Source: Convolutriloba macropyga
Lineage: Eukaryota
NCBI RefSeq assembly: GCF_964194025.1
Contig: NC_134481.1
Location: 7,068,001-7,132,000 of the forward strand
Direction: 5' to 3'
DNA: 64,000 nt
Under the pieces are notes generated by a model. It saw only the letters and a program-made list of their open reading frames with translations, did not search any database and was not told the origin of the DNA. Positions 40,539 through 52,523 of the stretch are shown here, one piece after another; position 1 is the stretch's first letter, and each line of letters begins with the position of its first letter. The position numbers and the translations under genes are program-made.

Positions 40539-42324
40539 GCAATTTTGAAATCAACTAGTGTTGAAGTCAGCTAGTATTGAAATCAACTATGTTAATAAAA
40601 TTCCTGAGAAAACAGAAGCAACCTCATGTGAAAAAAACTGCTCTCAAATACCGAAAATCTGTTCTTACAAATTCTCACTCTCCTTAAAAAGCAACTTAAA
40701 GACTTGCACGCCGTAAATTTCTCGTTTTTCGCTCCTTTTAATAACGCACGAAATCTTACTGCAACAAAAAATTAAATGTTGATCGAAAACAAATGTTTTT
40801 TACCCCATAAGAGCTGACTAAAAGATTGGATAAAACAAACAAACCCATCGTAACGAGAAAAACTTGAGCATTTACATCCCGGGACTTGAGTCACTATGTG
40901 CAGTTCTTCTTCATTATGGTTATATTGATGTAATGGATTTCACCCAGTCTAAACTTACCCTGTATAGTCTCAAAAATACCCATACCCCAAAAATAAGTCT
41001 GAACAGAATAAAGTCATACTTTTGTAGCTTTTACCGGGTAATTACTATAGTAGTATACACTATTTATACATAAGCTAGTTTGTAAGCAAATTACCACCAA
41101 GCCCATCCATTTACCTTAGTGGTTACGACTTGCTACACCAATTAAAAGCTACAAGTACCCACGAGGAAGTTTGAATCGCATATAAAGCCAACCTTGGTGG
41201 AGGGAGTGAAGCTGAAAATATTATTTTTCATGCAATAAATTTCACTCAAAAATCAAGACTGGCCAGTGTAAATTGTGACATGATCAGAGTACTGGCCATC
41301 CTAAAAAACAGAATGACTGATTCAGCTCTGCCACCAACCTCCGGATCGTTTACATCGTTGAAGCCCGCAAACAAAACATCAATTAAAATTTTCGAAAAAT
41401 TATCTGGTAACGTTTAAAAAAAACAAAATTTTTTGGAATGGAAAAACCGATCAACTAGAAAAACTGGACGGGCAAAAATTGTCAAAATTTTTTCAAAAAC
41501 TTATTGCTGGTGATATCTTTCATGTCAAAAGAGAACGGTGAAGAGATTTCAAAGATTAAAATTGAAATAAATTGAAAAAATGTCAAAACATTGTTGAGAT
41601 TGCAATTAAAACAAAGATTCATATATCAATTGCCAAAATAGCTTAATCCTGAAAACTTCCCAACTAAAAATCTCCTGACTGTTCCCAGAAAGCCCTATTG
41701 TGGTAATAGAATTTCAAACCAAAAAATATAAAATGGGGTGTTAAAACCTCCACAATTAGAATTAGTATTGGTGAGAAATTCCATTGAAGAAACCTTACTA
41801 ATTAGAAAATTGAAATATCAACAGATGTAGAATTTGATACGTATTATTCAGCTGCGAAGAACACAGTGATATCAATTTCAGAGGATTTTCTTTTGATTCA
41901 GCGTCAATCAAAAAGCATTAAGACAAAAAATACACGCAAGAAAAGAGCCAATAGAATAGAAAAAACGGTTATTCATCAGCCCTATGCACTCAACACTTAG
42001 CAAAATCAAAATCTTTCACTCAAGGCATGACACGAACAGAAGACTTCAATTTAATAAATTTTGTTGAAAAAAAAGCAAAAAAAACTTACCAGTAAAAACA
42101 GGCGAAGGTTTTCGCGAAGCACATCAAAGCGTCGGAAATCGCCGAGTAATCTATTGAACCCCAAGAAATTGAATGAAACCCCAAATAAACAGCACTAATT
42201 TAAGTTTTTATAATTTAAAAGGCACTGAGCAAAAACTGCAATTCAGAACCAAAAGTACGCTCCATTGAAAAACCAGACAATCCTTCACCGATTAGAAGGC
42301 TAACAGGACACAACATTAGCCACA

Positions 42325-44658
42325 AGTAGTATATCGTGAGCAAGACAGGGGGGGGGGGGGGGGGTAAAAGGAAGTACCTATGTATTAAGATTAGGTATAG
42401 CCCATTTTCGCTCAAATTGCAAAGATGTACCTCACAGCTTGACACCCACGCTGTTCACACGAGGGGGATTAGCAAGTTAATCCCTTAATATTAAATTAGT
42501 GAGGCTTACTAATTCCCATATTGCACTTTAATAATGTAAATTTTCAAAGACGTACCTGACAGCATGACACCCAAGCTGTTCTCTCAAAGGGGATTAGTTA
42601 GGTAATTTTTTAATATTAAATTAGATAGGGTGACTCATTTACACTTACGTACGGTTTACGTGATTTCCAAAGATGTACCTCCTCACAGCATGATACTCAA
42701 GCTGTTCACACGAAAGGTATTAGCAAGATAATCCTTTAATAATAAATTAGGATGACTCATTTACAGTTACGTACGACTTTTCAAAAGTGCACCTCACAGC
42801 ATGACACCAAGCTGTTCACACGAAAGGGATTAGCAAGATAATCCTTTAATAATAAATTAGGATGACTCATTTACAGTTACGTACGACTTTTCAAAAATGC
42901 ACCTCACAGCAAGACACCAAGCTGTTCACACAAAGGGGGATTAGCTAGGTAATCTTTTAATATTAAAATAGATAGGATGACTCATTTACAGTTACGTACG
43001 ACTTTTCAAAAATGCACCTCACAGCATGACACAAAGCTGTTCACACAAAGGGGGATTAGCTAGGTAATGTTTTAATATTAAAATAGATAGGATGACTCAT
43101 TTACACTTATGTACAGCTTACGTGATTTTCAAAAATGTACCTCACAGTATGATACCCAAGCTGTTCACACGAGGGGACTAGCAAGATAATCCCTTGATAT
43201 TAAATTAGTAAGGTCATTTACCCTTTCCCATAATACACTTTTATAATGTAAATTTCCAAAAGTGTACCTCACAGCATGACACCCAAGCTGTTCACACGAG
43301 GGGATTAGCAAGATAGTGCCTTAACATCGAATCAGTAAGGTCATTGGTCCCTACCATATTACACTTTAATAATGTAAATTTCCAAAGACGTACCTCACAG
43401 CTTGATACCCAAGCTGTTCACACGAAAGGGATTAGCACGATAATGTTTTAATATTAAATTAGGTAGGATGACTCATTTTTAGTTACGTACGTTAGACGTG
43501 ATTTTCAAAAATGAATCTCGCAGCATGATACCCACGCTGTTCACACGAAAGGGATTAGCAAGATAGTGCCTTAACATCAAATCAGTAAGGTCATTGACCC
43601 CCTGCCATATTACACTTTACAAATGTCAATTTCCAAAGACGTACCTCACAGCATGATACCCAAGCTTTTCACACGAGGGGGATTAGCAAGTTAATCCCTT
43701 AATATTAAATTAGGTCATTTACTCATTCCCATATAGCACTTTAATAATGTAAATTTTCAAAGACGTACCTCACAGCATGACACCAAAGCTGTTCTCTCAA
43801 AGGGGATTAGTTAGGTAATGTTTTGATATTAAATTAGATAGGGTGACTCATTTACACTTACGTACGGTTTACGTGATTTTCAAAAGTGTACCTCACAGCA
43901 TGATACCCAAGCTGTTCACACGAAGGGGATTAGCAAGACAGTGCCTTAACAAATTAGTAAGGACATTGACCCACTACCATATTACAGTTTACTAATGTAA
44001 GTTTACAAAGACGTACCTCACAGCATAACACCCAAGCTTTTCACACTACAGGGATTAGCAAGACAGTGCCTTAACAACGAATCAGTAAGACCATTGACCC
44101 CCTACCCTTTTACACTTTATTAATGTAAATTTTCAAAAGTGTACCTCACAGCATGATGCCCAAGCTGTTCACACGAAGGGGATTAGCAAGATAATCCTTC
44201 AATAATAATTTAGGATGACTCATTTACAGTTACGCACGACTTTTCAAAAATGCACCTCACAGCATGAAACCCAAGCTGTTCTCACAAAGGGGATTAGCTA
44301 GGTAATGTTTTAATACTAAAATAGATAGGATGACTCATTTACAGTTACGTATGGTTTACGTGATTTTCAAAAATGTACCTCACAGTATGATACCCAAGCT
44401 GTTCACACGAGGGGGATTAGCAAAAAAGTGCCCTAACAACAAATCAGTAAGGTCATTGACCCTCTATCATTTTACACTTTAATAATGCAAATTTCCAATA
44501 ACGTACCTCACAGCATGACACCCAAGCTGTTCACACGAGGGGGATTAGCAAGATAGTGCCTTAACAACAAATCAGTAAGGTCATTTACCCCCTACCATAA
44601 TACACTTTACTAATGTCAATTTGCAAAGACGTACCTCACAGCATGACACCCAAGCTGT
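42325..44658 (+). repeat. Left TIR (~480 bp matching the right end) and array of 19 core repeats, unit ~110-128 bp
   Basis: Core TACCTCACAGCATGACACCCAAGCTGTTCACACGAGGGGATTAGC occurs 19 times from ~42428 to ~44658; the last copy is truncated. Confidence 0.93.
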
Positions 44659-50889: not shown

Positions 50890-52059
50890 GGGAATGGGTG
50901 GGTAAATGACCTTATTAGTTTGTTGTTAAGACACTATCTTGCTAATCCCTTTAGTGTGAAGAGCTTGGGTATCATACTGAGGTTCATTTTTGAAAATCAC
51001 GTAAGCTGTACATAAGTGTAAATGAGTCATCCTATCTATTTTAATATTAAAACATTACCTAGCTAATCCCCCTTTGTGTGAACAGCTTGGGTGTCATGCT
51101 GTGAGGTACACTTTTGGAAATTTACATTTTTAAAGTGTAATATGGGAAAGGGTAAATGACCTAATTTAATATTAAGGGATTATCTTGCTAATCCCCTCGT
51201 GTGAACAGCTTGGGTGTCATGCTGTGAGGTACACTTTTGGAAATTTACATTATTAAAGTGTAATATGGGAAAGGGTAAATGACCTTACTAATTTAATATC
51301 AAGGGATTATCTTGCTAATCCCCTTCGTGTGAACAGCTTGGGTGTCATGCTGTGAGGTACATTTTTCAAAATCACGTAAGCTGTACATAAGTGTAAATGA
51401 GTCATCTTATCTAATTTAATATCAAAACATTACCTAGCTAATCCCCCTTTGTGTGAACAGTTTGGTTATCATACTGTGAGGTACGTTTTTGAAAAGTCGT
51501 TCGTAACTGTAAATGAGTCATCCTAACTATTATTAAAGGATTATCTTGTTAATCCCCTTAGTGTGAACAGCTTGGGTATCATGCTGTGAGGTGCACTTTT
51601 GAAAAGTCGTACGTAACTGTAAATGAGTCATCCTAATTTATTATTAAAGGATTATCTTGCTAATACCTTTCGTGTGAACAGCTTGAGTATCATGCTGTGA
51701 GGAGGTACATCTTTGGAAATCACGTAAACCGTACGTAAGTGTAAATGAGTCACCCTATCTAATTTAATATTAAAAAATTACCTAACTAATCCCCTTTGAG
51801 AGAACAGCTTGGGTGTCATGCTGTGAGGTACGTCTTTGAAAATTTACATTATTAAAGTGCAATATGGGAATTAGTAAGCCTTACTAATTTAATATTAAGG
51901 GATTAACTTGCTAATCCCCCTCGTGTGAACAGCGTGGGTGTCAAGCTGTGAGGTACATCTTTGGAATTTGAGCAAAAATGGGCTATACCTAATCTTAATA
52001 CATAGGTACTTCCTTTTACCCCCCCCCCCCCCCCCCTGTCTTGCTCACGATATACTACT
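50890..52059 (-). repeat. Right repeat array (9 cores) and right TIR
   Basis: Reverse-complement cores GCTAATCCCC..GTGTGAACAGCTTGGGTGTCATGCTGTGAGGTA. 51580-52059 is nearly identical to the reverse complement of 42325-42803. Confidence 0.93.
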
Positions 52060-52523
52060 GCCACAACATTGGATAAAAACTTGAACACAAGACGTAAAAA
52101 GAACAATTTCAGCATTTACATCACTGAAACAAGAACAAATTTGAAAAACAAGTGCATTAGAAACACTACAAAAGTTAAAAAATATATACACTATAACTAA
52201 ATACACACTACAAAACTAAATCAATATAAAAACGCCATTCCACATAACTGATACGAAATACTCACTCGGAAATTATGAATCCGCAAAATATTGTATTATA
52301 GGAAACATGATAACTGGTGACAATGAAAAAAGGCCGACATTCTTGTTTCAGTATGACGGATAAGAACTGACAGATTCAAAAAGATCCGGCAGATCTGGCA
52401 AGTTGAACTTAATTTTGAACAAAATAAGTGTAAATACTCATAATTTGACAAAACGAGTTCAAACTCTTCCAAAATTCTAATTTTTAAAAAAAGAATTAAG
52501 ATTAAAAATGAAAACGAAGAACA

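What the first reader, a model, noticed from the sequence alone, without database searches (positions are those of the whole stretch)
42319..52065. Young, cleanly bounded mini-Polinton lacking polymerase, major capsid and protease
Seen: perfect GCCACA TSD, TIRs with only a few mismatches over ~480 bp, intact integrase and ATPase, and all genes on one strand. There is no pPolB, double-jelly-roll capsid or adenain protease, and about a third of the element is terminal repeat array. Known: complete Polintons are typically 15-20 kb and encode those genes. Inference: this is either a post-insertion deletion or a helper-dependent, defective-interfering-like derivative that keeps the cis ends and its own integrase.
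Basis: partly seen in the sequence, partly recalled or inferred. Interest (0 to 1): 0.7.

Follow-up and report, generated by a model that had tools for sequence, protein, structure and literature searches.

The report
Deleted, decaying Polinton copy
This is one broken copy of an abundant virus-like transposon (Polinton/Maverick): a single deletion, probably of about 6 kb, left it without polymerase, major capsid and protease genes, and it has since been decaying like an ordinary genomic fossil rather than spreading as a helper-dependent mini-element.

Summary
The element is 9,735 bp with a GCCACA duplication and AGTAGT//ACTACT ends. Its inverted ends differ by 4 substitutions in ~480 bp, and ~120-bp repeat arrays plus ends make up 36% of it. 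Integrase and ATPase frames are open; no pPolB, major capsid or protease is present.

The helper-dependent reading is not supported. The element belongs to a family of roughly 100 copies. All 10 listed family pentons that reach this point run past the 44658/44659 junction, which has an 8-bp microhomology between an array unit and the penton gene. Each of the 7 window proteins found in the collection lies on one contig only. Changes private to this copy are 21 non-synonymous to 6 synonymous (neutral), against 2 to 7 at sites shared with the family (p=0.005). The penton is broken three ways and one more ORF is frameshifted.

Best reading: one copy deleted by microhomology joining, probably after insertion, now decaying. 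Still open: no full-length parent was seen, so the family's own capsid and polymerase genes are inferred from relatives. Curiosity: the array's 19-bp core recurs exactly inside a coding gene.

The parts
42319..42324 (+). left target-site duplication GCCACA
42325..42806 (+). near-identical part of the left terminal inverted repeat; starts AGTAGT, poly-G run, first three array units
   Evidence: 4 substitutions + 1 homopolymer difference against the right end
42415..44658 (+). left array of 110-128-bp units (18 complete, 19th cut by the deletion); median unit identity 76%
44651..44658 (.). deletion junction; 8-bp microhomology (CAAGCTGT on +) shared by the array unit and the penton gene
   Evidence: table 7: array-type contigs leave after 44658, penton-type contigs leave before 44651; random pairs give >=8 bp in 1.65e-4
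44651..45391 (-). penton (minor capsid, single jelly roll) pseudogene: premature stop 45200-45202, frameshift near 44716, last ~19 codons lost at the junction
   Evidence: the model of family member P0244 matches mavirus penton, Foldseek E 4.7e-11
45433..45771 (-). 112-aa basic protein, protein VII/pX-like core protein (label recalled, not tested)
   Evidence: homologues beside penton and capsid genes in 13 relative loci; no Pfam family
45802..46743 (-). retroviral-type DDE integrase, 313 aa, open frame, no chromodomain
46709..47175 (-). conserved ORF between the 100-aa gene and the integrase, split by a frameshift near 46946
   Evidence: table 4; the 76-aa piece is a one-member cluster; relatives carry a 190-375-aa ORF at this place
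47186..47488 (-). 100-aa conserved Polinton ORF of unknown function
   Evidence: 30-41% identity to the gene after the ATPase in relatives
47400..48140 (-). A32/FtsK-type packaging ATPase, 246 aa, open frame
   Evidence: Pox_A32
48142..48396 (-). 84-aa hydrophobic conserved ORF upstream of the ATPase
48439..48891 (-). 150-aa conserved ORF with invariant GGxIGxG and HAxxHDA motifs; PLA2-like by recalled motif only
   Evidence: alignment; no Pfam, PDB or Atlas match
48926..49675 (-). 249-aa ORF; C-terminal half weakly PC4/Sub1-like (lead only)
   Evidence: Atlas score 0.78, under the 0.9 mark; phmmer E 0.005 to an L003 ORF
49064..49082 (-). exact 19-bp copy of the array core inside the 249-aa gene (codons of KLFTRG)
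50164..50676 (-). 170-aa ORF, no homologue found
50885..51969 (-). right array, 8 units plus a fading 9th, inverted relative to the left array
51577..52059 (-). near-identical part of the right terminal inverted repeat, ends ACTACT
52060..52065 (+). right target-site duplication GCCACA

Best explanation
A full-size member of an abundant Polinton/Maverick family was inserted here by its DDE integrase. The 6-bp TSD and intact ends are shown; full size at insertion is inferred. One deletion then joined a unit of the left repeat array to the 3' end of the penton gene across 8 shared bases. The junction and microhomology are shown; microhomology-mediated end joining or slippage in the host germ line is inferred. 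By the layout of relatives, the lost piece held the major capsid, protease and pPolB genes, about 6 kb (inferred). The copy cannot copy or package itself, has not spread, and its remaining genes gather mutations without selection (shown for 27 coding sites). It is a young genomic fossil.
For: Family size: clusters at 90% identity hold 94 integrase, 119 penton, 62, 52, 44 and 39 member sequences, on long ENA contigs in all rows listed; crude recapture estimate ~113 contigs. 10 of 10 listed family pentons that reach the junction run through it; 4 more end earlier. In Logan contigs, penton-type loose ends leave at 44651 (3 contigs in X4, 1 in X5) and array-type ends at 44658 (54, 29, 6, 6 contigs), which defines the 8-bp overlap. 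7 of 7 window proteins found occur on one contig each, while common family variants occur on up to 23, 13 and 3 contigs. At the premature stop, no contig of 4 runs carries the window's letter (17, 13, 1, 4 contigs). Of the 40 listed difference sites, 29 are private (>=98% other letter in X1 and X4): 21 non-synonymous, 6 synonymous, 2 non-coding; neutral expectation 72-79% non-synonymous. The 11 shared sites are 2, 7, 2; Fisher p 0.005; omega 0.2 rejected at p 5e-6. End divergence (0.4% per arm) and private divergence (>=0.46%) agree. Relatives with the same front module continue into capsid, protease and, in L017, pPolB. [quoted passage not shown]
Against: The same test also failed for two other integrase families, so it is weak. 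Only 40 of 535 difference rows and 32 of 6,751 contig pieces were shown, only 15 members per cluster were listed, and contigs drop rare variants: a few sister copies with the junction are not excluded. Nothing dates the deletion relative to the insertion. The two frameshifts are single-base indels and may be assembly errors.
Confidence: 0.65

Rival explanations
1. One-off defective genome: the deletion arose during protein-primed replication of the family (copy choice at the 8-bp overlap). The short genome was copied and integrated once with proteins from complete siblings, then decayed without spreading.
For: Both ends and all cis sequence are whole. A short-homology junction is also what template switching gives (general knowledge). 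polB-less Polintons that stayed mobile are reported in butterflies (10.1101/2025.02.07.637071, passages). Uniqueness and neutral decay fit this as well as the best explanation.
Against: No positive sign of copying after the deletion. Other family copies also look damaged in other ways (fragments in every cluster; P0256 appears to lack the pVII-like gene), as expected of decay in place.
Confidence: 0.2
2. Spreading helper-dependent mini-family: either several copies share this junction, or the whole family lacks capsid, protease and polymerase and borrows them from other Polinton families of the host.
For: No capsid protein of this family turned up in two word-index searches, the second reaching 182 proteins. 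An earlier unchecked note of this scan describes capsid-only mini-Polintons elsewhere (e1-7498997).
Against: 0 of 10 listed family pentons share the junction. Window proteins are single-contig, and private changes are neutral, integrase and ATPase included. The family keeps intact pentons, and its shared variation is mostly synonymous, which is hard to explain without a capsid of its own. The capsid search also missed two other families.
Confidence: 0.08
3. Assembly artefact: the junction is a mis-join through the repeat array, and the indels are consensus errors.
For: The junction lies in a long imperfect array; no listed contig of 4 other runs bridges it (list cut); the source reads were not examined.
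Against: An 8-bp overlap is far shorter than assemblers use to join (general knowledge). Matching TSD and ends show one coherent locus. The left array units are distinct from each other, not collapsed. The substitution pattern is independent of the junction.
Confidence: 0.07

Closest known systems
Polinton/Maverick elements (polintoviruses, adintoviruses) of animals
   Same: 6-bp TSD, (AGT)2//(ACT)2 ends, long inverted ends, rve integrase, A32-type ATPase, single-jelly-roll penton, conserved small ORFs (PMC8097293 section 7 and passages; PMC4028283 and PMC8502044 passages).
   Different: 9.7 kb against 12.7-24.6 kb for intact vertebrate elements; pPolB, major capsid and protease absent; penton broken; a third of the length is ends and ~120-bp repeat arrays.
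Unnamed metagenome relatives L003, L013, L016, L017, L018 (integrase 35-48% identical)
   Same: Same front module in the same order: 150-aa ORF, 84-aa ORF, ATPase, 100-aa ORF, spacer ORF, integrase.
   Different: They continue penton, pVII-like, capsid, protease, and in L017 pPolB on the other strand. In 13 of 13 loci with both genes the penton precedes the pVII-like gene; in the window's family the order is reversed (table 8).
Defective ('fossil') Mavericks, 96% of vertebrate copies (PMC8097293)
   Same: Stops, frameshifts and lost genes in a copy that keeps its ends.
   Different: Here the deletion junction is resolved to the base and the ends and TSD are still nearly perfect.
polB-less Polintons that stayed mobile in Pieris mannii and other insects (10.1101/2025.02.07.637071)
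   Same: Ends kept, polymerase lost.
   Different: Those occur as several related insertions and carry LINE or LTR cargo; here one copy, no cargo, and the capsid and protease are lost too.

Membership tests
Polinton/Maverick (autonomous) | 6-bp target-site duplication | tested here: met
   GCCACA on both sides
Polinton/Maverick (autonomous) | terminal inverted repeats with (AGT)2//(ACT)2 or (AG)3//(CT)3 end motif | tested here: met
   motif as in PMC8097293 section 7
Polinton/Maverick (autonomous) | retroviral-type DDE integrase | tested here: met
   rve E 4.5e-9 above cut-off; D81, D145, E178 invariant in 30 sequences
Polinton/Maverick (autonomous) | A32/FtsK packaging ATPase | tested here: met
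   Pox_A32 E 5.4e-7 above cut-off
Polinton/Maverick (autonomous) | penton (single jelly roll) gene | tested here: met
   present but broken in the window; model of family member P0244 (pLDDT 64) matches mavirus, Sputnik and adenovirus pentons
Polinton/Maverick (autonomous) | protein-primed PolB | tested here: not met
   no tblastn hit of 9 pPolB queries in the window; no room left in the element
Polinton/Maverick (autonomous) | double-jelly-roll major capsid and adenain-like protease | tested here: not met
   10 capsid and 4 protease queries and a capsid profile find nothing in the window
Polinton/Maverick (autonomous) | length about 13-25 kb | tested here: not met
   9,735 bp. Filed as a defective derivative of a Polinton family, not as an autonomous member
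Non-autonomous / DI-like mobile derivative | cis ends kept while trans genes are lost | tested here: met
Non-autonomous / DI-like mobile derivative | same deletion junction at several independent insertions | tested here: inconclusive
   0 of 10 listed pentons share it, single-contig proteins, private letters absent from other runs; lists are partial and no genome was held
Non-autonomous / DI-like mobile derivative | retained genes (integrase, ATPase) kept under selection | tested here: not met
   private changes 21 non-synonymous to 6 synonymous over all genes; 4:1 in the integrase, 5:0 in the ATPase
Non-autonomous / DI-like mobile derivative | complete helper with the same ends in the same genome | tested here: inconclusive
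   intact family pentons and integrases exist; the family's capsid and polymerase were not located

The most novel reading that the evidence does not exclude
The whole ~100-copy family, not just this copy, lacks major capsid, protease and polymerase yet keeps integrase, ATPase, penton and core protein under selection. That would make it a satellite Polinton living on other Polinton families of the host. Its ~120-bp terminal arrays, whose 19-bp core is also an exact piece of its own PC4-like gene, would be amplified binding or origin sites that let it outcompete the helper.
Probability: 0.08. Interest if true: 0.7.

Novelty: new member of a known kind. Interest (0 to 1): 0.22.

Why it matters
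As it stands, little: it is a clean, base-resolved example of how Polinton copies die, by one short-homology deletion out of a terminal array followed by neutral decay. It points to an undescribed, abundant Polinton family with array-bearing ends and a swapped penton/core-gene order. It would matter if the junction proved shared, or the family proved capsid-less, because trans-complemented Polintons would make the unresolved question of how these elements replicate and spread testable from copy structure alone.

Tried and rejected
No whole genome is held, so copies could not be counted directly. Viral contigs: nothing with the integrase, its alignment, the penton alignment, the end sequence or the array core. 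Genome contigs: nothing. The metagenome scan gave 40 loci, none of this family (best 54% identity). The single-sequence fold of the window penton, read through with X, was unusable (pLDDT 32); I folded a natural family member with an alignment instead. The pPolB search returned 9,679 proteins without context and could not be tied to the family. No RNA holder was listed. No listed contig piece bridges the junction, but the list is cut, so this is not used as evidence. Depth values were not used as copy number. PLA2 label for the 150-aa ORF: no support from Pfam, PDB profile or Atlas. Earlier scan notes: none for this genome or sequence. Literature: phrase searches 'nonautonomous Polinton' and 'non-autonomous Maverick' gave 0 papers; searches listed no paper devoted to array-bearing Polinton ends (listings only). 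The library lacks most subscription papers; from recall (unchecked), Repbase holds non-autonomous Polinton entries. No supplements were opened; those of PMC8097293 and PMC4028283 may list elements lacking these genes. The integrase tree timed out and was redone with FastTree; it places the family in a weakly resolved group with P0014-P0019, P0023 and P0025.
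Full report
1. What is there. The element spans 42325-52059 (9,735 bp) between two copies of GCCACA and begins AGTAGT and ends ACTACT, the commonest Maverick end motif in PMC8097293 (section 7 read). Over the terminal ~480 bp the two ends differ by 4 substitutions and one poly-G length difference. Further in they remain related but differ by gained and lost units. Both ends carry arrays of 110-128-bp units, 18 complete plus a cut 19th on the left and 8 plus a fading 9th on the right, median identity 76%; ends and arrays make up 36% of the element. 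Between them ten genes lie on the minus strand: ORFs of 170, 249, 150 and 84 aa, an A32-type ATPase (Pox_A32, E 5.4e-7), a 100-aa ORF, a frameshifted ORF, an rve integrase (E 4.5e-9; D81, D145, E178 present), a 112-aa basic protein and a penton. The penton call rests on the model of natural family member P0244 (10-sequence alignment, pLDDT 64). It matches mavirus penton at Foldseek E 4.7e-11, and at Z 10.2 (rmsd 9.4, 199 aligned) in the wide search. Twenty-three capsid, protease and pPolB queries and a capsid profile find nothing in the 64-kb window. The labels 'pVII-like' and 'PLA2-like' are recalled and not supported by any search; 'PC4-like' is a weak Atlas lead (0.78).

2. What is missing and how it was lost. 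A scan with an integrase alignment gave 40 metagenome loci. The longer ones carry the same front module and then penton, basic protein, capsid-sized ORF and protease; L017 (16,152 bp) adds a split pPolB on the other strand. Pfam supports pPolB strongly (E 1.9e-30), the proteases less so (Peptidase_C48 E 3.3e-6 in L017, Peptidase_C5 E 0.002 in L003), and the capsid only weakly (Capsid_N E 0.014 for P0222). In L017 capsid to polymerase covers about 6.3 kb, so a parent near 16 kb is the natural inference; I did not see one. In the window the penton stops about 19 codons short, at the 19th array unit. On Logan contigs of four runs, array-type contigs follow the window up to 44658 and then go on as array (54, 29, 6 and 6 contigs). 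Penton-type contigs follow it down to 44651 and then go on as penton (3 contigs in X4, 1 in X5) (table 7). The junction thus has an 8-bp overlap with no inserted bases. Random array-by-interior pairs give 8 or more shared bases in 1.65 of 10,000 draws. This is the mark of microhomology-mediated joining or template switching (general knowledge).

3. One copy or a mini-family? The family is large. The window's genes fall in 90% clusters of 94 (integrase), 119 (penton), 62, 52, 44 and 39 sequences, on long ENA contigs in the rows listed; 87 distinct contig lengths were seen and a crude recapture estimate is 113. That these come from one assembly is inferred. Of 14 other penton members listed (40 of 119 read, 15 listed), 10 reach the junction position and all 10 run through it to a normal end; 4 end earlier. 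I looked up 15 translations of window ORFs; 7 were in the collection, each on a single contig of 202,683 bp, whereas common family variants sit on 23, 13 or 3 contigs. At the premature stop, none of 17, 13, 1 and 4 contigs in the four runs has the window's letter. Of the 40 difference sites shown (of 535), 29 are private to the window (>=98% other letter in X1 and X4; 17 strictly absent from both) and 11 are shared with part of the family. Private coding changes are 21 non-synonymous (the stop included) to 6 synonymous, as expected without selection (72-79%); shared ones are 2 to 7 (Fisher p 0.005). The integrase (4:1) and ATPase (5:0) are no exception. So the family is under purifying selection and this copy's own branch is not. 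Divergence between the ends (0.4% per arm) and private divergence (at least 29 in 6,301 bp, 0.46%) agree: young, but not fresh. No rate is available to give years.

4. Results against this reading. I could not show that the family owns a capsid or polymerase gene. The test linked one other family (P0015) to capsid cluster P0445 by a single match but failed for two more, and the word index is known to miss relatives, so I count it as inconclusive. The run tables are cut and contigs drop rare variants, so a few sister copies are not excluded. The single-base frameshifts may be assembly errors. A unique junction does not order deletion and insertion.

5. Mechanism. Shown: integrase-type insertion with intact ends; one deletion at an 8-bp overlap; neutral decay since. 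Inferred: full size at insertion, loss of capsid, protease and pPolB in that deletion, and host-side repair as the cause (0.65). Rivals: a defective genome made during replication and integrated once with sibling help (0.2); a spreading or family-wide helper-dependent form (0.08); a mis-assembly (0.07).

6. Comparison with what is known. It works like, and derives from, a Polinton/Maverick, but fails three defining features (pPolB, capsid and protease, size), so I file it as a defective derivative. PMC8097293 (passages) reports that 96% of vertebrate copies are defective and intact ones measure 12.7-24.6 kb. PMC4028283 (passages) notes elements lacking capsid, protease and ATPase together and discards elements under 10 kb as incomplete. 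PMC8502044 and PMC6431247 (passages) give the general gene set. 10.1101/2022.07.12.499685 and 10.1101/2023.08.22.554363 (passages) held nothing on non-autonomous forms. Distant capsid relatives include Convolutriloba macropyga proteins, and Mavericks are 4.5% of one acoel genome (PMC6451197, passages), so an acoel host is a weak guess only. Two earlier unchecked notes of this scan (e1-7498997, e1-7498819) describe other reduced Polintons and motif arrays in ends; I did not test them.

7. Features of the family worth a look. The penton follows the basic-protein gene, the reverse of 13 of 13 relative loci that show both; contigs in X1, X4 and X5 span this arrangement, so it is a family trait (table 8). 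The 19-bp core of the array unit occurs exactly once more, inside the 249-aa gene at 49064-49082 (blastn E 1.4e-4 per unit; 0 of 100 shuffles reach the score). The peptide it encodes is kept in all 12 of 14 listed members that cover it. The arrays may have grown from a piece of this gene, or the motif may be a binding site used in both places; neither is tested.

8. Verdict. Observation confirmed; helper-dependent reading not supported; an ordinary deleted copy of an undescribed Polinton family. Novelty: new member of a known kind. Interest 0.22. Most novel reading left open: a capsid-less satellite family, probability 0.08, interest 0.7 if true.

Noticed in passing
window 49064-49082: Exact 19-bp copy of the terminal-array core inside the coding sequence of the 249-aa (weakly PC4-like) gene; peptide conserved in 12 of 12 listed family members that cover it. 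The arrays may derive from this gene or share a binding motif with it.
   Followed up: partly
window 44651-45802: Order integrase, basic protein, penton is reversed for the last two genes against 13 of 13 relative loci; other runs show it is a family trait.
   Followed up: partly
P0256 (family penton): Its first 12 residues match an alternative frame at the end of the integrase gene and then run straight into the penton, suggesting another copy with its own deletion of the basic-protein gene (from protein sequence only).
   Followed up: no
window 52524-54318: 1.8-kb imperfect palindrome (82% arm identity) with internal repeats just right of the element; looks like a foldback or MITE-type element.
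   Followed up: no
window 32984-40538 and 30679-31894: Three tandem copies of a 2,517-bp unit at 99.8% identity, and two of a 608-bp unit at 99.8%: very recent duplications or assembly repeats.
   Followed up: no
window 13565-24439: Host genes: a long exon ending in a PHD-like finger (KDM5-like by recall) and a 295-aa FHA-like ORF (by recall), within a 4.1-kb tandem duplication at 99% identity that copies the FHA-like ORF and the start of the long exon.
   Followed up: no
window 55768-59586: Non-LTR retrotransposon with endonuclease, reverse transcriptase and RNase H-like parts (by recall), broken by stops, ending at an (AG)29 run.
   Followed up: no
window 62719-63832: Fragments of a second reverse-transcriptase element on the minus strand; a similar fragment at 27947-28525.
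   Followed up: no
window 42303-42324 and 52060-52070: The insertion site lies in a short host repeat (CACAACATT on both sides of the TSD); the duplication itself is still exactly 6 bp.
   Followed up: partly
L017 10786-15157: pPolB of this relative is split into three ORFs in the contig.
   Followed up: no
capsid clusters P0222, P0451, P0454, P0463, P0475, P0479, P0487, P0492: Many Polinton capsid families of 34-60 members on long ENA contigs; P0451 has members annotated in Convolutriloba macropyga: these hosts carry several large Polinton expansions.
   Followed up: no
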